Of a DNA stretch of 64,000 nucleotides, positions 8,381-46,905 are shown one piece after another (positions within the stretch are counted from its first letter, which is position 1; every line of letters starts with the position of its first letter). The stretch is taken from IMG/VR virus record IMGVR_UViG_3300020408_000003, positions 1 to 64,000 of that record; one strand, written 5' to 3'. The DNA comes from a virus. Position numbers and translations under genes: made by a program. Under the pieces are notes generated by a model. It saw only the letters and a list, made by a program, of their open reading frames with translations. It was not told the DNA's origin and ran no database searches.

Positions 8381-8934
8381 ATTATACCTTCTACCTTTTG
8401 TATATCTCTACGATCTAATCTCCACACGGATTGTTTAACTCCGTATATTTCTTTTTCATCATACCAACTATATGTTGGATCAATATCTTTACATTTATGA
8501 AAATGTTTATCTAATTTTTCACTACTAGCTGTTCCACCGTCTCCAGTATTAGTAGTGAATAATATATATTTTGCTCCACGATCCATTGCGTAATCTACCA
8601 TATATGGTACCAACCAACTTGTAATTCCAGAACAAGATATTAAACCTCTTCTTCTTCCAAATCCTTTAGCTCTATATTGTCTTAGCGTAGCAGTTCTACA
8701 AAATATTCTCCATGCTTCAGGGTAATATTCATAAAAATCGTGCGTATGCGACATAGATATAATTTTATTATCGTAATAAATTACATATAAACCACTATTA
8801 GATCTTAATGCTAATTTTTCCATAGTTGAATTATTTTCAATGCCTTGATCAGCAGCTTCACTAATAAAAGCTTCTAAATCTGATAACATCGAATCATTGT
8901 AAAGTTTTATTTGCATATTGTTTATGTTTAACAT
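8377..8934 (-). CDS. Hypothetical protein, possible GNAT fold
   Basis: WRIFCRTATLRQYRAKG resembles the acyl-CoA-binding motif A. Confidence 0.45.
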   Translation of the reverse strand: MLNINNMQIKLYNDSMLSDLEAFISEAADQGIENNSTMEKLALRSNSGLYVIYYDNKIISMSHTHDFYEYYPEAWRIFCRTATLRQYRAKGFGRRRGLISCSGITSWLVPYMVDYAMDRGAKYILFTTNTGDGGTASSEKLDKHFHKCKDIDPTYSWYDEKEIYGVKQSVWRLDRRDIQKVEGII

Positions 8935-10225
8935 AACACCTCTTTATTATATCGGATTTGTCTTTATCAGTAATATTTTTAATTTGATCGTAGGTATAAT
9001 CTAAATTACGTAATCGATTATAAAATGTAAAACTATTTATTGTATTATTCATCGAACGAATAGCTATATCAGTTGCTTGTGATTCAGTCATATTATCGTT
9101 GTACCAACCCATATCATTAAATGAATATCCGTATTTATCAGGATCAATTCCTATTTTTGACTTTGGCGATATCGATAAAACTTGAAAACTATAACTATCA
9201 ATTGAATTTGTTTTATCTAACCAATCAACTGTAGCATTTAAAGTGTCTTGAGTTTCGTACGGCAATCCAGCAATGAATCCGCAAGATATTAAAATATCTG
9301 GATGCTTTTCTTTCATCCATTGCAATCCATCTTTTATTTTATTTGGATCCATACCCTTACCAATGGTTTTTGCAGATTTATGATTAAAACTTTCTATTCC
9401 AAAGAATACAGATTTTAATCCGCTTTCTGCTAATATATCCCAACTTTCTGGTTTTGAAATAATAAGATCTGCACGTGCATAGGATGAAAATTCTAAATCA
9501 AACGGTAATGTTTTAAACATATTTTTTAATTTTCTAATTTTTTCTACAGAATCATTATAGGTGTCATCACTAAACATATAACCTTCAGTTCCGTAATTAA
9601 TATAATTTCTCATCATTTCTTCTTTTAAAACTTTCGGTGATTTACAAAAATCCCAAAGTTTTTTACCGTTTAAAGGATAAGAACAAAAACTACATTTAAA
9701 TATACAACCTCTGGCTATTTCAATAGGTAAATGTTCTTTTTCAAAAATATAATCTGAATCATCCCACAATATTTGGCTTGTATTAAAATTAAAATCGTTT
9801 ATAAATTTATCTTCGGCAGGACCGTAAATGTACTTTACATTTTTAAATTCATTTTTTATCTTCATACCTCCAATCACTATTTGCATTCCTAAAGTTCTTA
9901 TATAACTAAATAATTCTTCGGCTTCTTGTTTTTCAATTCCAATGCTAGTGGCTTTTTCTAATTCGGATCTTATTTTAATTCGACTTTCAAAAGCATCAAA
10001 ATTTTTAGGAGCCATGAATGTAGAGCTAAAACCAATCCATGTGGTGTCTTTAGTTTTATATTTTAAAATGATATTTTTTATTTCATTTAAATTAAAAAAG
10101 GTAAAAAAATCTACAACTTTAACCTTTTCATTTTTTAATCTAAAATCTGAAGCAATTCTATAAGCACCAGCGGCTCTTCCTAAACCAATACTTCCATTTA
10201 CGTCTGTGAAAATGATAGCTTGCAT
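8894..10225 (-). CDS. B12-binding-type radical SAM protein
   Basis: ARGCIFKCSFC, DDTYN, FGIESF, IAGLPYET. Confidence 0.9.
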   Translation of the reverse strand: MQAIIFTDVNGSIGLGRAAGAYRIASDFRLKNEKVKVVDFFTFFNLNEIKNIILKYKTKDTTWIGFSSTFMAPKNFDAFESRIKIRSELEKATSIGIEKQEAEELFSYIRTLGMQIVIGGMKIKNEFKNVKYIYGPAEDKFINDFNFNTSQILWDDSDYIFEKEHLPIEIARGCIFKCSFCSYPLNGKKLWDFCKSPKVLKEEMMRNYINYGTEGYMFSDDTYNDSVEKIRKLKNMFKTLPFDLEFSSYARADLIISKPESWDILAESGLKSVFFGIESFNHKSAKTIGKGMDPNKIKDGLQWMKEKHPDILISCGFIAGLPYETQDTLNATVDWLDKTNSIDSYSFQVLSISPKSKIGIDPDKYGYSFNDMGWYNDNMTESQATDIAIRSMNNTINSFTFYNRLRNLDYTYDQIKNITDKDKSDIIKRCYVKHKQYANKTLQ

Positions 10226-10926
10226 TTAATTTTTTCTCTAAATTCATCTGTAAATACCCCGTCTATTCTTAAACAATACGAGGCTTGTGGTATGCCGTCT
10301 GAAGTATGTCTATCTTGATCATTAAACCAAGTACATGTTGATTCTGGATAATGTTTTACTTTTATTCCATTTTCTTGTTCATCAACTAAATGAAATCTCA
10401 TTTTATTTTTGTCTATAGTAAACCATAAAAATTCACACACATCATTTCTTTCACCATCATACATTCCATCACGATGTTCAGTTAGTATTGAAAAATGATC
10501 CAATGTAAAAAAGAATACTCTACCAAAATTTTCAAATGGAAGTGCGTTTATATATTTTACTAATTCAGGGAAATACTTTGCATTATGAGTCCATTCAGCA
10601 CCTTCACCAGAATCTTTATTTAAATATCCTTTATGTTTTTTTAAAAATACACCGCTAACAGAATAATGAATATCTTTCCAATACTTTAAAAATGTTCTTC
10701 TTTCGTAAGTAGTAAGCCCTTCAACTTCTTTCTCATATTTGTATTCTTCTTCATATGGATATATTAAATCATCTTGTAATTTATATACTCTAGGGCCAGG
10801 ATCACATATATGTGGATATGATTTTGCCAATCCCATAGCTATTTCTTTATCTAATTTCAAAAAACTTTCTGTATCAACTATATCGTCTAAATCTAAAAAT
10901 GGTATACTATAATCTAAACCTATCAT
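10198..10926 (-). CDS. 2OG-Fe(II)/cupin oxygenase-like protein
   Basis: EHRD...RH...LRIDG metal-binding pattern. Confidence 0.6.
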   Translation of the reverse strand: MIGLDYSIPFLDLDDIVDTESFLKLDKEIAMGLAKSYPHICDPGPRVYKLQDDLIYPYEEEYKYEKEVEGLTTYERRTFLKYWKDIHYSVSGVFLKKHKGYLNKDSGEGAEWTHNAKYFPELVKYINALPFENFGRVFFFTLDHFSILTEHRDGMYDGERNDVCEFLWFTIDKNKMRFHLVDEQENGIKVKHYPESTCTWFNDQDRHTSDGIPQASYCLRIDGVFTDEFREKIKCKLSFSQT

Positions 10927-11497
10927 ATATCTGTATTAACTCCTTATTATCTGTCTCATGTCTTTCAGGTAAACACGTTACAATGTGTATTCTATTTTGT
11001 TCTGTTGAACAATTCATTGCAGTATGTTCTTTTGTAGTATTAACTATAACAACTTCGCCTTCTTTTAAATTTAAAACCTGTGGAGGATCTGTGAATATAA
11101 ATCTACCTCCCTTTCCGTATGTATCATAAGCACCGTAAATGGGTATATGCATTCGAATTGTTTTATCTTTATGTAATGAATAACAAGTTTTAGGTGTTTG
11201 TATCATAATCCGTGTTCTTACAACGGGAAATGGGAGGTTTTTTAAACACTCAATAATATATTCATTTTCAATATCTTTATTCCATACATTAAATTGTGCG
11301 TCCGATGTTACAGATCCATCATTATACCATAGCGACCCAACTCCATCATAGTGTTTATTTTCAACAGTTTCGGGTAAATGCTGTAAAGCAATCTGTGAAA
11401 CTGAATCTGGAGGAGGACACTTTTTCTTTATAGATAAATATGATTGATATAATTCTTTTACATTAAATTTTATGTTATAATAAAAATGAGATTCCAT
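10907..11497 (-). CDS. Asp/Asn beta-hydroxylase-like 2OG-Fe(II) oxygenase
   Basis: YSLHKD..RMHIPI...HTAMN...RIHIV. Confidence 0.8.
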   Translation of the reverse strand: MESHFYYNIKFNVKELYQSYLSIKKKCPPPDSVSQIALQHLPETVENKHYDGVGSLWYNDGSVTSDAQFNVWNKDIENEYIIECLKNLPFPVVRTRIMIQTPKTCYSLHKDKTIRMHIPIYGAYDTYGKGGRFIFTDPPQVLNLKEGEVVIVNTTKEHTAMNCSTEQNRIHIVTCLPERHETDNKELIQIYDRFRL

Positions 11498-12641
11498 GAG
11501 TTTACGCCAAAGTAAATGGTTTTGTCCTGAGCCTTTTTCTAATATATTTATAACTACAGATGGAGCTGCTGCTCCGTGTTGTGTCTCTGGTCATTGGCCT
11601 TTGAAAGAGCATCAGACTCATAATATAAAAGATTGGAGTAAAGTTCAAAATAGTAAATATTTTAAAGGATTAAGAGAAGATTTATCAAAGGGTGCCGGTG
11701 ATTTTATATCTAATTATTGTAGTTGGTGTTATAAAAATGAAGAAGCCGGTAGAAAGTCGCATCGTCAAAATTATGTAGAAAGATTAACAGATGAAGAATG
11801 GGATTTATTAGATAAAGCTTATTTAGACAAAAATAATTATAAACCGCCTATCATTAAATCTATGCAAATTAAAGCATTGGCAGGAAACTATTGTAATTTA
11901 TCTTGTCAAATGTGTTTAGCTTCAGAGTCATCAGGTTTAGCATTAGAAAATCGTAAATTGGGAATTAAAGATAATCACCCTTTAGATAGACCTGCAAAAT
12001 ATCTTTTTCCGTGGGATCAAAATGGATTAGAAGAATATTTAAGAAAAACGCAAATATTAAAATTAGTTGGTGGTGAAACTCTAGCTATTAAAGCAAACTA
12101 TGATATTTTAAAAACGTGCATTGATAAAAAAATATCAGATAATATAAGCGTTGAAATTATAACAAATGCAACTATTTTTCCAAAGTTTGATAACTATGAT
12201 ATATTTGATTACATTCCATTTTTTAAAAATTTTAATATAACATGTAGCGTAGAAATATGGGGAGAAGAAAATGACTATATTCGTTATCCAAGTAAATGGG
12301 AAGAAACTGAAAAAAACATTTATAGATTAAATGAAACAAATGCAAATGTCGCAGTAGCTTCTACGGTCAATGCTTTGAATATCGGTTATTTAAATAAAAT
12401 GAAATTTCCAAGATATAGTTTTATGTCGGTAGTATCTGCAGATAATCCTTTTAGTATTACATCTATTCCACCAGATATTAGACAAAATCTAAATATATTA
12501 CCTGAACATAAAGAATTATTAAATGTGTTTAAATATGATAAAAATAATATGGATAAGATGTTAGAAGTTATCCGTAAAAGAGATCAGTTTAGAGGTACTA
12601 AACTTACTGATGTATTTCCTGAGTGGGATCGTTACTACTAA
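11496..12641 (+). CDS. Radical SAM protein with N-terminal twitch/SPASM-like domain
   Basis: CPEPF..PCC..CSWC; CNLSCQMC; GGET; YIRYPSKW. Confidence 0.85.
   Translation: MSLRQSKWFCPEPFSNIFITTDGAAAPCCVSGHWPLKEHQTHNIKDWSKVQNSKYFKGLREDLSKGAGDFISNYCSWCYKNEEAGRKSHRQNYVERLTDEEWDLLDKAYLDKNNYKPPIIKSMQIKALAGNYCNLSCQMCLASESSGLALENRKLGIKDNHPLDRPAKYLFPWDQNGLEEYLRKTQILKLVGGETLAIKANYDILKTCIDKKISDNISVEIITNATIFPKFDNYDIFDYIPFFKNFNITCSVEIWGEENDYIRYPSKWEETEKNIYRLNETNANVAVASTVNALNIGYLNKMKFPRYSFMSVVSADNPFSITSIPPDIRQNLNILPEHKELLNVFKYDKNNMDKMLEVIRKRDQFRGTKLTDVFPEWDRYY
11545..11552 (-). promoter_or_regulatory. Late promoter embedded in the plus-strand radical SAM gene
   Basis: TATAAATA about 48 nt upstream of the ATG at 11497. 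Confidence 0.55.
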
Positions 12642-14265: not shown

Positions 14266-14273
14266 TATTTATA
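14266..14273 (-). promoter_or_regulatory. Late promoter heading the tailoring-enzyme island
   Basis: Exact TATAAATA. Confidence 0.75.
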
Positions 14274-14274
14274 T

Positions 14275-14622
14275 GACCAGATTCTGTTCCCAAGCTCTGG
14301 TCAGGCTCGGTATAATTACGCTGCTTGTGCGTAATCTACGGGTGCAAAATTATCGTTTGCATTTATTTTTTCGTAGACTCAATTACCTGTCGATCCTATT
14401 TCGCCCCCACAAAGATACACTAGCTGATTCTACCTATCAATCAGACGATGTTAACCGGATGTGCATTCCCTTGTGCACCCTGCGGTGAAGCCGTTGTGTA
14501 CCGTAGGTATTGCTCCATATTACAGTTGGGCTCCCAAGTTCATATGTCAAAACCTAGTGTATCTATGGTGGAGGCGACGGGTACCGCCCCCGTGTCCAGT
14601 ATAACCTCTAACATCTACTATA
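14275..14622 (-). ncRNA. ssrA: Circularly permuted (two-piece) tmRNA, alphaproteobacterial type; tag ANDNFAPVDYAQAA
   Basis: Acceptor piece GGACACGGG-GGCGGTA-CCCGTCGCCTCCACCA ends at 14566; coding piece GGGGGCGAAATAGGATCGAC starts at 14408; G3.U70 pair; tag reading frame 14360-14316; closing hairpin GACCAGA..TCTGGTC. Confidence 0.95.
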
Positions 14623-14628
14623 ATATTT

Positions 14629-14658
14629 ATTATATTACACTTTTGATATGATGTAAAC
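14629..14658 (-). promoter_or_regulatory. Sigma70-type promoter for tmRNA
   Basis: GTTTACA-N17-TATAAT. Confidence 0.85.
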
Positions 14659-14660
14659 AG

Positions 14661-15683
14661 TTAATTTGGTTTTGCTGCATCTATACCTGGAAGATATTCG
14701 CTCATGCCAAGTAATTCACCATCTGTAAATTTTCCATCGAAAGGATCAAAGTCACCCATAGTAATTGCATCAACTAAATTTTTTGCTACTATTTGAACTG
14801 CTGGTGGCATATTCGTAAAAGGTGCCATTTCAACCATACCTGTGTCCATACCTCCCCAAGTATCTGCTGATTCCCAAGTACCGTTCAGAACTGCTCTTAC
14901 TCTTTCAACATAATACGGACCCCATTGATCTATAATAGCTGTAAGTTGAGTATTGGGTGCAAACTTAATCATATCAGATGCTTGACCAAATGCTTTGATA
15001 CCAGCTTTTTCTGCAACTTGTAATGCTGCAGTAGAATCTGTATGTTGTGTAATAATATCTGCGCCTTGTTGAATTAATACTTCGGCAGCATCACTTTCTT
15101 TTGCGGGATCATACCAAGTATTAACCCATACAACATCAATATCAAAATCTGGATTTACTGAAGTAGCACCAAGATAAAAAGCGTTAATACCTCGAATAAC
15201 TTCAGGAATTGGGAAAGAAGCGATATAACCTGCTTTTCCTTTTTCACTCATCATTCCAGCAATAACACCTTGAATATATCTACCTTCATAAAATTTAGAA
15301 GAATATACAGCCATATTATCAGCAGTTTTATATCCAGTTGCGTGTTCAAACTTTATATTCGGAAATTTCTTTGCAACATTTAACATTTGTTCCATGTACC
15401 CAAAAGAAGTAGCAAATATCATGTCGACGCCGTTCATAGCCATTTGCGTCATAACTCTTTCAGCATCAGGTCCATATTTTACACTTTCGACATAAGTCGT
15501 TGTAACGTCATCACCAAATTCTTTTTCAATTGCTTTACGCCCTTCGTCATGCATGTATGTCCAACCATGATCACCTGTCGGTCCGACATAAATAAAGCCG
15601 ACTTGAAGTTTGTCAGCTGATACGGTAGTAACTAAAAATAGCGGCATTAATAGGACAGCCAGTCCTTTTATGAATGATCTCAT
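14661..15683 (-). CDS. BMP family ABC transporter substrate-binding protein (purine/nucleoside-binding type); start revised to 15683
   Basis: Signal peptide, GFIYVGP.GDHGWTY.H, ATSFGY, FEHATGY, PIPEVIRGINAF, QHTDS. Confidence 0.9.
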   Translation of the reverse strand: MRSFIKGLAVLLMPLFLVTTVSADKLQVGFIYVGPTGDHGWTYMHDEGRKAIEKEFGDDVTTTYVESVKYGPDAERVMTQMAMNGVDMIFATSFGYMEQMLNVAKKFPNIKFEHATGYKTADNMAVYSSKFYEGRYIQGVIAGMMSEKGKAGYIASFPIPEVIRGINAFYLGATSVNPDFDIDVVWVNTWYDPAKESDAAEVLIQQGADIITQHTDSTAALQVAEKAGIKAFGQASDMIKFAPNTQLTAIIDQWGPYYVERVRAVLNGTWESADTWGGMDTGMVEMAPFTNMPPAVQIVAKNLVDAITMGDFDPFDGKFTDGELLGMSEYLPGIDAAKPN

Positions 15684-15728
15684 AAACAGATTTCCTTTCG
15701 ATGTTTTGATTGTTGTTAAATAATTATA

Positions 15729-15736
15729 TATAAATA
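15729..15736 (+). promoter_or_regulatory. Late promoter for the plus-strand gene at 15809
   Basis: TATAAATA, then AGGAG RBS before the ATG. Confidence 0.65.
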
Positions 15737-15808
15737 CTATTGTCAATATATTATTCTCCCATTATGTTTATTTTTTGAAATGAATTAAAAAATTCATAGG
15801 AGAAATTT

Positions 15809-17595: not shown

Positions 17596-17708
17596 TGGCT
17601 CTGGGAGAAGGATTCGAACCTTCACGCTAGATAAATAACTTTTTACACTAATTATTATCTAACAACCAATAAACAGTTGATCGCGTCTACCAATTCCGCC
17701 ACCCCAGA
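17596..17708 (-). tRNA. Non-canonical tRNA-Asn(GUU) with 41-nt variable arm
   Basis: Acceptor TCTGGGG/TCCCAGA-G-CCA; D arm GCGGAATTGGTAGACGC; anticodon stem ATCAA/TTGGT with loop CTGTTTA; T arm GAAGG-TTCGAAT-CCTTC. Confidence 0.85.
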
Positions 17709-17714
17709 ATAATT

Positions 17715-18605
17715 TTATGGTCTAGGATTACCGTATGATTGTGCAAATCCATGCATTACTCCACTTTTAGGATCAACAAATTCAGTAGTAAAATTTGCAT
17801 TTACTCTTTTGTGCGCTTTTATCATTCGAGTCACACCAATTCCACCACCAACTCTTGGAAAAAATTCAAACTTTAAAAATTCATCAAGTTCTTTTTGCAC
17901 TCTTTCTTTACCAAATAAATCATAAAGTAATTGAGCATACTGTCCATCTGATATAGTTTCAAAAGTATTTCTCATTTGATCTACGTCTGTGCTTCTTTCA
18001 GCAGATCCAATTGTTTCCATACCATTTAAAATAACGTCAATCTTTTTACTTGTTTTGCCGTCTTCATTTCTTGTCATATTCCAAAAAGGTGATGTATGTT
18101 CTGGAAATTTAGTAATCATGCCCCAATCAATTTGTTTTTCATGGTAATTATCAAGTTCATCTGTATTAAATTCTAAACACCATTCTTCATATGTTTTTTC
18201 ATCTAACTTAGGAAATCCCATATATTCACATAATTCGATTTCTAATTTTTTTAGATCATCAATGTCACCTGGCATTTCAAATTCAAACATTGGAAAGATT
18301 GTTTCATGTCTTCCTTGTATTGGATTTGGTTCTTGTCTATAACTTGTTGAAAGACAAAAATAACCTGGTGAATTCGGGCCACCGTGTGCTAGCAATTCGT
18401 GTTCTAACCACATTTGCCCAGTTTGGGGTAATGGCCAAACTTCTCCATCATAATTATAAATTCCTACTGTTTCAGGATCTTCACACGCTGCTAATATACT
18501 TAATCTATTTTGTGTATGTACTTCCCACCAACCTTTTTCCAAAAAAAAGGACCGTAAACGGCCCACTGTAAAACTATAATCTTGTGAATTAATCAACTTT
18601 GTCAT
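17715..18605 (-). CDS. Class IIb aminoacyl-tRNA synthetase catalytic domain only (AsnRS-like / archaeal-type asparagine synthetase-like)
   Basis: Motif 1 LRSFFLEKGWWEVHT, LPQTGQMWLE, motif 2 SYRQE..GRH..FPMFEFE, ETIGSAER, motif 3 GGGIGVTRM; no N-terminal OB fold. Confidence 0.85.
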   Translation of the reverse strand: MTKLINSQDYSFTVGRLRSFFLEKGWWEVHTQNRLSILAACEDPETVGIYNYDGEVWPLPQTGQMWLEHELLAHGGPNSPGYFCLSTSYRQEPNPIQGRHETIFPMFEFEMPGDIDDLKKLEIELCEYMGFPKLDEKTYEEWCLEFNTDELDNYHEKQIDWGMITKFPEHTSPFWNMTRNEDGKTSKKIDVILNGMETIGSAERSTDVDQMRNTFETISDGQYAQLLYDLFGKERVQKELDEFLKFEFFPRVGGGIGVTRMIKAHKRVNANFTTEFVDPKSGVMHGFAQSYGNPRP

Positions 18606-44928: not shown

Positions 44929-45986
44929 GCTATCTCTAAAGATTGAGCCTCTGTCATTAAATCGCGCATATTAATTTTTAATTTATCTTTATCTAAATCT
45001 GTATCAACACCATCAATATAATCGTTCATAAGTTTTGGTGTATCATCAACTTCTAAACCTTCATCAGCTATATTTTGACCAACAAATTCAGAAAAATTTT
45101 CTGCTATTTTTAGTTCGTATATATCTTGATTTTGGATTCTATCTACAAATCTATCAAAAGTAAAACTATCTCCTTTATTAACTACAATAATCTTTACAAA
45201 CTTTTTATCTAAATTAGATACCGTATATGTATTATAATTGGTTTTTGTAGAATTGTAAATGATTTTATGAAATAAAGTAAAAGTATTTTGTATTCTTTCT
45301 AGTTTACGAGTTTCAGTGTCTAGAATATGAAAGTATTTTGGATCATGGGCATCAGACCAAAAATATTCTAATGGCGATCCAAGATACCACACATTTCCTT
45401 TTTTAGATGAAGTATGAAAATGACCAGTTATAACTTGTTCGAATCTATCGACGACACTTGGATCCATTCCATGATGATTGGGTATACCTTTTAGCATATC
45501 AAACCCACATAATTCTAAATGAGCACCTAACCAATCTGCTTTACAATTTTGTATAAAATTCATAGACTGTTGATGATTTTCTTGATTAATCCATGGTAGT
45601 AAAGCCATTTTTAAAGAGCCATATTCCATAACAGTTGGTTCCATAATAATATGGATTTCATTCATGTAATGACCGAGTAATTCTTTTAGAGCATTCAAAT
45701 CATTCGTATTTTTATAATAGGTATCATGATTACCGGGTATGATATCCATAGACATACCACGTTTTCTAATTTCATTTAAAAAACATTTTCTATTATGATT
45801 CAATGCTTTAAAGTTTACAAATTTTCTGTGATCATAATAATCACCAAGATGTACTATTTGTTTTATATTATGTTTTTCACACTCCGGAAAAAATATATTA
45901 TCATAAAAATCTTTGGCATTGTCTAAAAATATTTGTGAAGAATTTCTTATACCACAATGGGTATCATTTAATATAGCTATTTTCAT
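44925..45986 (-). CDS. gp47: Recombination nuclease (Mre11/SbcD-like); start 45986
   Basis: DTHCG, HLGD, GNHD, GHFH. Confidence 0.96.
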   Translation of the reverse strand: MKIAILNDTHCGIRNSSQIFLDNAKDFYDNIFFPECEKHNIKQIVHLGDYYDHRKFVNFKALNHNRKCFLNEIRKRGMSMDIIPGNHDTYYKNTNDLNALKELLGHYMNEIHIIMEPTVMEYGSLKMALLPWINQENHQQSMNFIQNCKADWLGAHLELCGFDMLKGIPNHHGMDPSVVDRFEQVITGHFHTSSKKGNVWYLGSPLEYFWSDAHDPKYFHILDTETRKLERIQNTFTLFHKIIYNSTKTNYNTYTVSNLDKKFVKIIVVNKGDSFTFDRFVDRIQNQDIYELKIAENFSEFVGQNIADEGLEVDDTPKLMNDYIDGVDTDLDKDKLKINMRDLMTEAQSLEIA

Positions 45987-46321
45987 TATTTCTTTTGTAC
46001 ACCTTGGCTTATAACACAATATATATTATAATTGAAATGATATTCAAACATCGTATATGTATTTGTTGTTGGATTAAAATAAAATGACATTGGTATTATT
46101 TCCATTTCATCTTGTAATCCATCTTCTGATCTTACTTTAGTTGTTTGTAAACCTTCAAATATTAATACTTCTTTTCTACTACCAGTAGTTTCTTCGGCCA
46201 TTGATCTTTCCATACATAACACTGGTTTATCATTCCATGTCATACCTAAAGATACTGTTACTGTTACTAATACTAAAACTATTACAGCAACTAACATTAA
46301 TATTACGGGAAATTTATTCAT
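45986..46321 (-). CDS. Secreted/membrane two-Cys hypothetical protein
   Basis: Signal-like N-terminus, PVLC...YCVISQG. Confidence 0.65.
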   Translation of the reverse strand: MNKFPVILMLVAVIVLVLVTVTVSLGMTWNDKPVLCMERSMAEETTGSRKEVLIFEGLQTTKVRSEDGLQDEMEIIPMSFYFNPTTNTYTMFEYHFNYNIYCVISQGVQKK

Positions 46322-46905
46322 GTCATAAACTCACTTAAATCTGAATCAGCACTCACTGTTCTCTTTTTTCTAGTTTTTTCTTGTTTTGCGAAAGCTTTTA
46401 TCTTATCGTCAGTATATCGTACCTTTTCAATTCTATCTTTTAAAGAATCGACAAAAGCACTAACTATAGGAGCAGAACCTTCTTCTGCTACCACAAATTC
46501 TTCTAATCCAGAAGAACTTAAATATTTCATTTTTATGTCTTGTTGTTTCTTTTCTTTTGCAATTCTTCGAAGAAAGGCATACCAAGTAATTTGAGTAAAA
46601 TAAGCAAAAGCATTTGGATTACCAGTTCTTGTTGCAGCTTCTAAATTATAATTACCGATTGCTTTTAAACAGTTTTCTACAGCGTCCATAACCATTTCTT
46701 CTCTATACGTATATCGTATAAAGTTAGCCTTATGTGACAACCCTTCAGCTATCCTTAAAAAGCATTGCGCAACATAGTTTGGCACTTTAGGTATTTCTTT
46801 TTTCTTAGATTTTGCTGCATCAGCAATTTTTACATAATCTACAACTGCCTGAGAAAATTCAGCGTTATTAACATAATGTATATTTTTCTTATTTCTTCTT
46901 GGCAT
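46318..46905 (-). CDS. gp55: Late-transcription sigma factor
   Basis: HYVNN, NFIRYTYREEM..DA.ENC, NAFAYFTQI..AFLRRI..EK. Confidence 0.96.
   Translation of the reverse strand: MPRRNKKNIHYVNNAEFSQAVVDYVKIADAAKSKKKEIPKVPNYVAQCFLRIAEGLSHKANFIRYTYREEMVMDAVENCLKAIGNYNLEAATRTGNPNAFAYFTQITWYAFLRRIAKEKKQQDIKMKYLSSSGLEEFVVAEEGSAPIVSAFVDSLKDRIEKVRYTDDKIKAFAKQEKTRKKRTVSADSDLSEFMT

What the first reader, a model, noticed from the sequence alone, without database searches (positions are those of the whole stretch)
14409..14565. 157-nt structured RNA carried inside the tmRNA intervening segment
Seen: between the CCA (14566) and G1 (14408) the segment is closed by an 11-bp stem (AGATACACTAG/CTAGTGTATCT) and holds four further helices: CATAT..TTGGG/CCCAA..ATATG, CCTACGGT/ACCGCAGG, GTGCA/TGCAC and CTGATT/AATCAG. 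TACCTA/TAGGTA offers an alternative pairing. It is much more GC-rich than the flanking DNA. Established: this segment is excised during tmRNA maturation and is usually short and poorly conserved. Inference: tmRNA processing releases a separate stable ncRNA (sponge, ribozyme or switch) that I do not recognise.
Basis: partly seen in the sequence, partly recalled or inferred. Interest (0 to 1): 0.8.

Follow-up and report, generated by a model that had tools for sequence, protein, structure and literature searches.

The report
Conserved folded RNA inside phage tmRNA spacer
The piece that is cut out when this marine phage's two-piece ribosome-rescue RNA (tmRNA) matures is a conserved, knotted small RNA of a family not yet catalogued, so the tmRNA gene seems to double as a delivery cassette for a second RNA whose job is unknown.

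Summary
The 157-nt stretch (14409-14565, minus strand) lies exactly between the CCA end and G1 of a permuted alpha-type tmRNA in an uncultured marine T4-like phage. It is a real structured RNA. I found it at 25 loci including the window, which give 14 distinct full-length sequences. All 25 sit in the same tmRNA spacer. None was found in 185,579 cellular genomes or in phage isolates.

Covariation supports the 11-bp closing stem, the CAUAU/AUAUG stem, the CUGAUU/AAUCAG hairpin and the long-range UACCUA/UAGGUA pairing, which makes a pseudoknot. GTGCA/TGCAC lies in an insertion found only in the window and L188.

No Rfam family matches. Between two very different tmRNA bodies the spacer is 84-94% identical while the coding pieces are about 47% identical, so it moves as a cassette.

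Release as a stable RNA, and what it does, remain untested. This scan has noted other RNA and protein cargo in phage tmRNA spacers on other DNA, but not this family.

The parts
14629..14657 (-). Sigma-70-like promoter of the tmRNA gene (TTTACA, 17 nt, TATAAT)
   Evidence: 11 of 12 consensus matches. This is a consensus match only.
14566..14618 (-). tmRNA acceptor piece, ending in CCA at 14568-14566
   Evidence: Rfam RF04321 at 85.2 bits and RF01849 at 81.9 bits; sequence.
14409..14565 (-). Intervening segment (IVS), 157 nt: the structured RNA under study
   Evidence: Model R1 scores 116.7 bits here.
14554..14564 (-). P1, 5' strand (AGAUACACUAG)
   Evidence: Pairs with 14413-14423. 11 pairs, 100% of cells paired in 14 sequences, 3 pairs changed on both sides. 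Duplex energy -14.3 kcal/mol.
14413..14423 (-). P1, 3' strand (CUAGUGUAUCU). Four nt (UUGU) then separate it from G1.
   Evidence: sequence.
14516..14546 (-). P2: CAUAU (14546-14542) pairs with AUAUG (14520-14516). The tip hairpin UUGG/CCAA (14537-14526) is variable.
   Evidence: P2 has 97.6% of cells paired and 1 compensatory pair. The tip is absent in 3 of 14 and enlarged in 3 others.
14504..14509 (-). Pseudoknot, 5' strand (UACCUA)
   Evidence: Pairs with 14431-14436. 100% of cells paired. The end pair occurs as UA 6, CG 5, AU 2, UG 1.
14494..14501 (-). Invariant single-stranded word GUACACAA
   Evidence: Identical in 14 of 14. It contains the palindrome GUAC.
14454..14490 (-). Insertion of about 36 nt, private to this phage, forming the hairpin ACCG..GUGCA..UGCAC..CGGU
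   Evidence: Present only in the window and L188. L194 has an unrelated hairpin at the same site.
14445..14453 (-). Conserved junction UAACAUCGU
   Evidence: Nearly invariant in alignment A2.
14424..14444 (-). P4 hairpin: CUGAUU (14444-14439) pairs with AAUCAG (14429-14424). Its 9-nt loop carries the pseudoknot 3' strand UAGGUA (14436-14431).
   Evidence: 100% of cells paired. UA changes to CG in L183 and L196.
14272..14408 (-). tmRNA coding piece of the 'minimal' body type. The tag frame at 14360-14316 reads ANDNFAPVDYAQAA then stop.
   Evidence: Rfam. I read the tag from the sequence.

Best explanation
The spacer of this phage's two-piece tmRNA gene carries a separate RNA module. It belongs to a small phage-only family with a core of about 100 nt.

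An 11-bp closing stem (P1) encloses a multi-helix junction made of P2, a short central helix and P4. The junction is locked by a 5-6-bp pairing between the central loop and the P4 loop, which is a pseudoknot. Extra hairpins are tolerated at two peripheral sites, and the window has a private 36-nt one.

The module is transcribed from the tmRNA promoter as part of the precursor. Inferred: RNase P cuts 4 nt after its closing stem to make G1, and an endonucleolytic cut plus trimming exposes CCA 1 nt before the stem. The module would then leave as a stem-closed RNA of about 150 nt, protected against exonucleases, that acts on its own on a partner not yet known.

Shown: position, conservation, covariation, cassette-like exchange between tmRNA genes, absence from Rfam. 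Inferred: excision sites, stability, action in trans.
For: (1) The segment lies exactly between CCA and G1 of a tmRNA supported by Rfam.

(2) 25 of 25 loci that carry the motif hold it in that same spacer. There is one copy per genome in the 4 phage records searched whole.

(3) Structure: 96.0-98.7% of cells are paired, against 27-40% when partners are slid. 7-8 pairs changed on both sides, against 3.1-3.5 +/- 1.2-1.3 in shuffles (0 of 500 reach the observed number). G-U pairs recur at several positions, for example 9 of 14 at one P4 pair, and would be C-A mismatches on the other strand. RNAalifold finds P1, P2 and P4 on its own.

(4) Loops and junctions are invariant while stems covary. That pattern is expected of a specific tertiary fold.

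(5) tmRNA maturation does not need this fold. 33 of 103 distinct spacers in a sample of phage tmRNA genes are 40 nt or shorter.

(6) For 8 of 14 sequences the nearest spacer sits in the other tmRNA body type, with spacer identity 0.84-0.94 against coding-piece identity 0.45-0.48. The module is therefore exchanged or retained independently of the tmRNA body.

(7) The same slot holds unrelated cargo elsewhere: ORFs preceded by a ribosome-binding site in 30 of 103 spacers, and a tRNA-like RNA in L089.
Against: No RNA ends, abundance or half-life were seen. The RNA-library data are contigs and cannot exclude DNA carry-over.

Only 14 distinct sequences exist and they are closely related. Recombination among them means that cells are not independent events.

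The central part is unresolved: a P3 of 5 bp competes with two 3-bp helices.

Single-sequence folding is unremarkable: z = -1.83 for the window and -0.95 to -4.02 for 13 relatives.

No antisense target for the conserved single-stranded words exists in the 64-kb window, and no partner is known.

The best-conserved blocks also read as a -35/-10-like pair.
Confidence: 0.5

Rival explanations
1. A cis-acting maturation device. The fold works only within the precursor. It would clamp the two halves of the acceptor stem together, delay or gate RNase P and 3'-end processing (possibly in response to a ligand or protein), and then be degraded.
For: P1 sits 1 nt after CCA and 4 nt before G1, coaxial with the acceptor stem. 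Every long spacer in the sample is closed by a stem. Invariant junction nucleotides suit a binding pocket. A glutamine riboswitch sits beside the Melnitz tmRNA (PMC9004378, passages read), so metabolite sensing at phage tmRNA loci has a reported precedent.
Against: A plain hairpin or a spacer of 3-40 nt suffices in 33 of 103 spacers. The outer part of P1 is shared with spacers whose interiors are unrelated, so the clamp does not need this interior. No riboswitch model matches.
Confidence: 0.22
2. A hitch-hiking spacer with no function of its own. It would be a structured insert kept only because it is harmless and recombines along with the conserved tmRNA flanks.
For: Exchange between tmRNA bodies could be driven by the identical flanks alone. 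Peripheral hairpins come and go.
Against: Compensatory changes in five helices, and invariant loops across lineages whose mature tmRNA parts are only about 47% identical, point to selection on the fold.
Confidence: 0.12
3. An internal promoter. The conserved blocks TTAACA and TAGAAT, 16 nt apart, would start a second transcript about 12 nt before G1, so that the coding piece could be made separately.
For: 10 of 12 consensus matches at 14454-14427. At least 9 of 12 are kept in 13 of 14 relatives, always with 16-nt spacing.
Against: The scan finds 6 such sites in 650 nt against 2.5 +/- 1.8 in shuffles, so a match is weak evidence. In L183 and L196 the change in the -10 hexamer is matched by a change in the spacer that restores the P4 helix, which is RNA logic. 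L194 loses the -35 hexamer (3 of 6). A promoter does not explain P1, P2 or the pseudoknot.
Confidence: 0.07
4. A self-cleaving ribozyme of a new class that frees the CCA end or its own ends.
For: It has a compact pseudoknotted junction with an invariant core and variable peripheral hairpins, as small ribozymes have. A structured 3' trailer needs an endonucleolytic cut.
Against: No ribozyme family matches at E up to 10. Spacers with quite different cargo share the same boundaries, so general host enzymes suffice. A cyclic-phosphate end on CCA would block charging (established chemistry, recalled).
Confidence: 0.05
5. A protein-coding segment, on the sense or the antisense strand.
For: An antisense frame is open through the whole segment in several relatives. 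The ORF listing gives plus-strand ORFs at 14273-14488 and 14448-14651.
Against: The window's own antisense frames carry stops. The open frame switches register between relatives. Lengths differ by non-multiples of three (103 to 157 nt). Every sense frame has stops and no ribosome-binding site with a start codon is present. Substitutions follow base pairs, not codons.
Confidence: 0.02

Closest known systems
Intervening sequence of circularly permuted (two-piece) tmRNA genes (Rfam RF04321, RF01849; PMC11915505, passages read; Keiler et al. 2000, recalled, not held)
   Same: It lies between the CCA end of the acceptor piece and G1 of the coding piece, and is absent from mature tmRNA.
   Different: In the passages I read, PMC11915505 reports content in a spacer only twice: one tRNA-Ala gene and one repetitive element. 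Here the spacer is a conserved, covarying, pseudoknotted RNA family. Across tmRNA body types it is better conserved than the mature coding piece.
tmRNA of OM43 phage Melnitz and pelagimyophages (PMC9004378, abstract and passages read)
   Same: A marine T4-like myophage with an alpha-type two-piece tmRNA behind its own promoter. The helicase is 62% identical, and a 38-nt stretch of a type-B relative's acceptor piece (L146) is 97% identical to Melnitz.
   Different: The Melnitz spacer holds a 54-codon ORF and not this RNA. Melnitz has a glutamine riboswitch just after the tmRNA; the window has none.
Phage T4 small stable RNAs C and D (species 1 and 2), processed out of the tRNA gene cluster
   Same: It would work alike: a small structured RNA of unknown function, co-transcribed with tRNA-type genes in a T4-like phage and freed by tRNA-processing enzymes.
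   Different: No sequence or fold relation was tested. The host gene here is a tmRNA, and the module sits inside the gene, between its two halves.
Junction RNAs locked by loop-loop pairing, such as the purine riboswitch aptamer (recalled)
   Same: A closing stem, a junction with invariant nucleotides, and a covarying long-range loop pairing.
   Different: The helix count and the sequence differ. No Rfam riboswitch model matches, and no ligand or expression platform is known.

Membership tests
Intervening segment of a permuted tmRNA gene | Flanked by an acceptor piece ending in CCA and a coding piece starting at G1, both recognised by tmRNA models | tested here: met
   RF04321 at 85.2 bits (cut-off 47) and RF01849 at 81.9 bits (cut-off 50). 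The segment is modelled as an insertion. ARAGORN missed the gene.
Intervening segment of a permuted tmRNA gene | Removed from the mature RNA in vivo | not testable with these tools
   Only contigs were available from RNA libraries.
Any family of Rfam 15 | Covariance-model match | tested here: not met
   cmscan of 14380-14600 at E up to 10 gave only the two tmRNA models, plus sR7 at 13.4 bits (cut-off 37, E = 0.65) inside the private insertion.
tRNA or tRNA-like cargo (as in L089 and the tRNA-Ala case of PMC11915505) | Cloverleaf with a T arm, recognised by ARAGORN or the Rfam tRNA models | tested here: not met
   No tRNA call or match in the segment. As a contrast, the L089 spacer scores 31.1 bits on the tRNA-Sec model.
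Glutamine riboswitch (RF01739) | Model match | tested here: not met
   None in the window. The same tool finds it at L200 1886-1934 with 52.8 bits.
Small self-cleaving ribozymes held in Rfam | Model match; catalytic cleavage | tested here: not met
   No model matches at E up to 10. Cleavage itself cannot be tested here.
Phage small stable RNAs freed from tRNA-type precursors (T4 RNA C and D; recalled) | Bounded by tRNA-processing sites on a shared transcript | tested here: met
   The 3' boundary lies 4 nt before G1, the expected RNase P site. The 5' boundary lies 1 nt after CCA. One promoter lies upstream. The sites themselves are inferred from anatomy.
Phage small stable RNAs freed from tRNA-type precursors (T4 RNA C and D; recalled) | Accumulates as a discrete stable species | not testable with these tools
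   One search gives presence in RNA libraries only.
Self-pairing phage small RNAs noted earlier by this scan (e1-6100381, e1-6100388) | A self-complementary word in an apical loop that is kept or covaries | tested here: inconclusive
   GUAC is invariant. The palindrome around it is 4 nt in 7 of 14, 6 nt in 1, 8 nt in 1 and 10 nt in 5. GUUAAC occurs once in 14 of 14. Words this short are expected by chance, and neither covaries.
Protein-coding spacer cargo | A ribosome-binding site, a start codon and a conserved reading frame | tested here: not met
   Stops in all sense frames. The antisense frame is not kept in register. Lengths are not multiples of three.

The most novel reading that the evidence does not exclude
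Marine T4-like phages use their tmRNA gene as a production line for a second, independent RNA. The excised spacer would be a new class of phage small RNA with a pseudoknot-locked junction core. It would be swapped between phages as a cassette. It would act in trans as a decoy or regulator of a host or phage factor, or alternatively as a ligand-sensing 'pro-segment' that decides when the phage's tmRNA becomes active.
Probability: 0.35. Interest if true: 0.8.

Novelty: new variant of a known kind. Interest (0 to 1): 0.62.

Why it matters
The spacer of two-piece tmRNA genes is treated as discarded filler. Here it is an RNA under selection for its fold, and it is kept across tmRNA genes whose mature parts have diverged beyond easy alignment. 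Together with the protein genes and the tRNA-like RNA seen in the same slot, this suggests that phages use the tRNA-processing signals of tmRNA to express and release small cargo.

It gives RNA biologists a compact, uncatalogued pseudoknotted fold to probe. It also gives phage biologists a testable case of a stable-RNA precursor with two products.

Tried and rejected
Rfam at the gathering threshold and at E up to 10 found nothing beyond tmRNA.

ARAGORN found no tRNA or tmRNA in the window.

blastn of the tmRNA locus against 50,697 phage records found no match for the window. For a type-B relative it matched only 38 nt of the Melnitz acceptor piece.

Two long degenerate patterns found 0 hits in genome contigs.

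Two further viral scans aimed at divergent members, followed by a model R1 search of their new loci, added no member. R1 run over 196 loci plus the window matched only family members. L091 (21 bits) and L106 (20 bits) share the P1 stem alone.

An extension of P1 by pairing the junction after P1 with CAUCAU has 81% of cells paired and no compensatory change, so I rejected it as a conserved helix.

Searches for antisense targets of the two conserved single-stranded words within the window returned only the segment itself. Host targets were not searched.

A protein-coding reading is rejected.

RNA evidence: four metatranscriptome runs from four studies hold contigs that cover the segment. X15 record 2 covers 14389-14566 with 0 differences at depth 5.6. 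X17 record 17 covers 14402-14570. X18 record 24 covers 14447-14597. X16 record 6 covers 14275-14456. Depth is low, DNA in the libraries is not excluded, and the contig ends fall where the sequence becomes shared with other tmRNAs, so they say nothing about RNA ends. In X15 the phage-specific flanks have no cover while the segment does. The high-depth 'joints' that skip 150-158 nt carry 4-33 other letters and come from other organisms' tmRNAs with short spacers.

Literature: three searches found no paper that describes a structured RNA family in a tmRNA spacer. PMC516066 and PMC16621 are not held. Supplements were not opened, and the tmRNA database tables of PMC11915505 may list spacer contents that I could not see.

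Full report
What is there. On the minus strand the window carries a circularly permuted, alpha-type tmRNA gene. Rfam tmRNA_permuted spans 14316-14618 (85.2 bits) and alpha_tmRNA spans 14272-14661 (81.9 bits). ARAGORN misses the gene. Read from the sequence, the acceptor piece ends with CCA at 14568-14566. The coding piece starts with G at 14408 and carries the tag frame ANDNFAPVDYAQAA. A TTTACA-17-TATAAT promoter-like site lies at 14657-14629. The 157 nt between CCA and G1 (14565-14409) are the finding.

The record is a virus fragment of 81,648 bases, rated 40% complete. Its DnaB-type helicase is 62-65% identical to those of marine T4-like myophages, namely Phage C48C1, Synechococcus myophages and the OM43 phage Melnitz.

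Is it more than chance? On its own the segment folds only a little better than shuffles: -43.1 kcal/mol, z = -1.83, with 7 of 200 shuffles as good. Its GC content is 0.45, against 0.19-0.29 in the gene downstream. The decisive evidence is comparative.

Pattern scans of viral contigs and one scan of metagenome contigs yielded 25 loci including the window. Of these, 22 are full length and 3 are cut by a contig end, and they give 14 distinct full-length sequences of 103-157 nt. All 25 lie between the CCA end and the GGGGGCGAAAU start of a permuted tmRNA.

Two long patterns found nothing in one genome from each of 185,579 bacterial and archaeal species. No isolate in a 50,697-record phage collection has the motif. 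A covariance model built from the 14 sequences found exactly one copy in each of four phage records searched whole and none in Melnitz. Among about 200 other loci it found no further member.

Structure. On the MAFFT alignment A2 I tested a model with the following parts:
- P1, the 11-bp closing stem;
- P2, with a variable tip;
- a central helix;
- P4, the CUGAUU/AAUCAG hairpin;
- a long-range pairing of UACCUN with NAGGUA, whose 3' strand lies in the 9-nt loop of P4, making it a pseudoknot.

In this model 96.0% of 520 cells form standard pairs, against 32-40% when partners are slid by 1-3 columns. Seven pairs show changes on both sides, against 3.1 +/- 1.2 in shuffles, and 0 of 500 shuffles reach seven.
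- P1 has three such pairs.
- P2 has one: C-G becomes U-A in L183 and L196.
- P4 has one: U-A becomes C-G in the same two sequences.
- The pseudoknot has one pair that occurs as U-A in 6, C-G in 5, A-U in 2 and U-G in 1.

RNAalifold recovers P1, P2 and P4 independently. It also proposes a 3-bp extension of P1, columns 13-15 with 71-73.

A hybrid model splits the strand AACCAUACCUN into three consecutive short helices: one with GUU downstream, one with AUG after P1, and one with the P4 loop. It reaches 98.7% paired cells and 8 covarying pairs. With 14 closely related sequences I cannot decide between a 5-bp P3 and these two 3-bp helices. P1, P2, P4 and the pseudoknot are solid.

An alternative helix between the junction after P1 and CAUCAU is not conserved: 81% of cells paired and no compensatory change.

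G-U pairs are frequent at several positions (for example 9 of 14 at one P4 pair and 8 of 14 at one P2 pair). They would be C-A mismatches on the other strand, so the selected molecule is the RNA of the tmRNA strand.

The loops and junctions are invariant. GUACACAA is identical in 14 of 14, AACAUC(A/G)U is nearly so, and AGGUAG is identical in 14 of 14.

The 11-bp stem, CAUAU/AUAUG and CUGAUU/AAUCAG are confirmed. The UUGG/CCAA tip is an optional appendage: in L159, L183 and L196 a short loop replaces it, and in L092, L162 and L165 it is enlarged. UACCUA/UAGGUA is the conserved pseudoknot and not an alternative. CCTACGGT/ACCGCAGG pairs at 7 of 8 positions, uses the pseudoknot strand, and has its partner inside an insertion of about 36 nt. 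That insertion exists only in the window and in the identical metagenome contig L188. GTGCA/TGCAC is the hairpin of the same insertion. L194 carries a different hairpin at the same site. This site and the P2 tip are therefore places where the fold tolerates extra arms.

Context: the spacer as a slot. In 115 of them both spacer ends could be found, which gave 103 distinct spacers. By a crude rule:
- 33 are 40 nt or shorter;
- 30 carry a ribosome-binding site and an ORF of at least 15 codons;
- 40 are longer and have no such ORF. Many of these are GC-enriched and stem-closed but have unrelated interiors.

Melnitz, a cultured phage, has a 54-codon ORF that starts in the spacer and runs into the coding piece. 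Its record annotates only SsrA there. The L089 spacer is tRNA-shaped: it scores 31.1 bits on the tRNA-Sec model, below the cut-off of 47.

Earlier notes of this scan describe the same slot idea for protein genes, and they describe other RNA families in spacers on other DNA. I treated those notes as leads. The family described here was not among them.

Modularity. The 14 sequences sit in two tmRNA body types. Type A is a 'minimal' coding piece (window, L159, L162, L186, L192, L196). Type B is longer (L092, L136, L146, L165, L183, L184, L187, L194). For 8 of 14, the most similar spacer belongs to the other type. Spacer identity is then 0.84-0.94, while the coding pieces are 0.45-0.48 identical and the acceptor pieces 0.67-0.71 where measurable. 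Within a type, the coding pieces are 0.96-1.0 identical while the spacers differ by indels in the peripheral arms. L165 looks like a mosaic of an L162-like 5' half and an L136-like 3' half. The module is therefore exchanged between tmRNA genes, probably through the identical flanks, and its core is kept.

Mechanism. Shown: a selected fold, in the precursor of a tmRNA, at a fixed place. Inferred from established tmRNA and tRNA processing: RNase P cuts at G1, 4 nt after P1, and an endonuclease plus trimming exposes CCA, 1 nt before P1. The product would be a stem-closed RNA with a P1 duplex of -14.3 kcal/mol and short overhangs, which should resist exonucleases.

Short spacers and plain hairpins serve many phage tmRNA genes, so the elaborate invariant core is not needed for tmRNA maturation as such. 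I therefore favour an RNA with a role of its own after release (confidence 0.5) over a purely cis-acting maturation or gating element (0.22). A functionless passenger (0.12), an internal promoter (0.07), a ribozyme (0.05) and coding sequence (0.02) rank lower.

The promoter reading deserves mention because TTAACA-16-TAGAAT coincides with the two best-conserved blocks. However, the change in the -10 hexamer in L183 and L196 is compensated within the P4 helix, L194 loses the -35 hexamer, and a promoter explains none of the other helices.

RNA data. Four metatranscriptome runs hold low-depth contigs that cover the segment, one of them exactly. These are contigs, DNA is not excluded, and the contig ends coincide with sequence shared among tmRNAs. 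They do not test release or stability.

Comparison and novelty. The segment is a member of the class 'intervening segment of a permuted tmRNA' by position. It matches no Rfam family, tRNA, riboswitch or ribozyme model. It would work most like the small stable RNAs that T4 processes out of its tRNA cluster (recalled, not tested).

In the papers I could read, spacer content is mentioned only as one tRNA-Ala gene and one repeat (PMC11915505, passages). The Melnitz paper does not analyse the spacer: its text has no occurrence of 'intervening'. Three literature searches found nothing on structured RNAs in tmRNA spacers. I rate it a new variant of a known kind. The RNA family and its location are new. 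The principle of freeing small RNAs by tRNA-type processing is known.

Noticed in passing
window 17599-17708 (-) and 17715-18605 (-): A tRNA-like gene (Rfam tRNA, 41.1 bits; missed by ARAGORN) has a 38-nt insert that forms a long variable arm, and its anticodon loop reads GUU. It lies directly after a 296-aa class II aaRS catalytic-core ORF with weak AsnRS/AspRS matches. Earlier notes of this scan have already followed this pair up (e1-6207312).
   Followed up: partly
L200 1584-1748 (Melnitz MZ577097.1, inside SsrA 45984-46436): The spacer of the cultured phage Melnitz's tmRNA holds a ribosome-binding site and a 54-codon ORF (MFKW...) that runs into the mature coding piece. The record annotates no CDS there. 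Peptides with a similar ...PKYL(S/G)G motif are encoded in the spacers of L041 and L015. I read those two by eye from the DNA printed and did not translate them with a tool; one search printed L041's peptide but a different ORF for L015.
   Followed up: partly
L031, L047, L111, L096, L100, L108, L018 (tmRNA spacers): A family of small hydrophobic peptides (..YI.WSICAD..L.AGI..) is encoded inside tmRNA spacers of 159-192 nt. In some of these the stop codon lies in the few bases just before G1.
   Followed up: no
L089 11221-11325: This spacer is a tRNA-shaped RNA with a GGGUUCGAAACCC T arm and a long extra arm. The spacer's closing stem serves as its acceptor stem. It scores 31.1 bits on the tRNA-Sec model, below the cut-off, and ARAGORN calls nothing.
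   Followed up: partly
window 14272-14408 compared with L092, L136 and others: There are two tmRNA body types. The window's coding piece lacks the roughly 45-nt stretch that type B has between the tRNA-like start and the tag frame (a 'minimal' tmRNA). ARAGORN fails on the window's gene.
   Followed up: partly
window 14427-14454 (-): Promoter-like hexamers TTAACA and TAGAAT, 16 nt apart, lie inside the spacer and coincide with its most conserved blocks.
   Followed up: yes
window 14454-14490 (-): The private insertion contains GUGCACAAGGG, which resembles the invariant core word GUACACAACGG just upstream. It may be a local duplication.
   Followed up: no
window 8894-12641: Two radical-SAM ORFs (8894-10225 on the minus strand; 11496-12641 on the plus strand, with a weak SPASM match) lie downstream of the tmRNA locus. 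A Bmp/PnrA-like substrate-binding protein gene (14661-15746) lies directly upstream of it.
   Followed up: no
window 14389-14409 and 14566-14597, runs X15-X18: High-depth contigs from RNA libraries join the conserved acceptor end to the conserved coding start across only 4-33 other letters. These come from other organisms' tmRNA genes with short spacers in the same waters.
   Followed up: no
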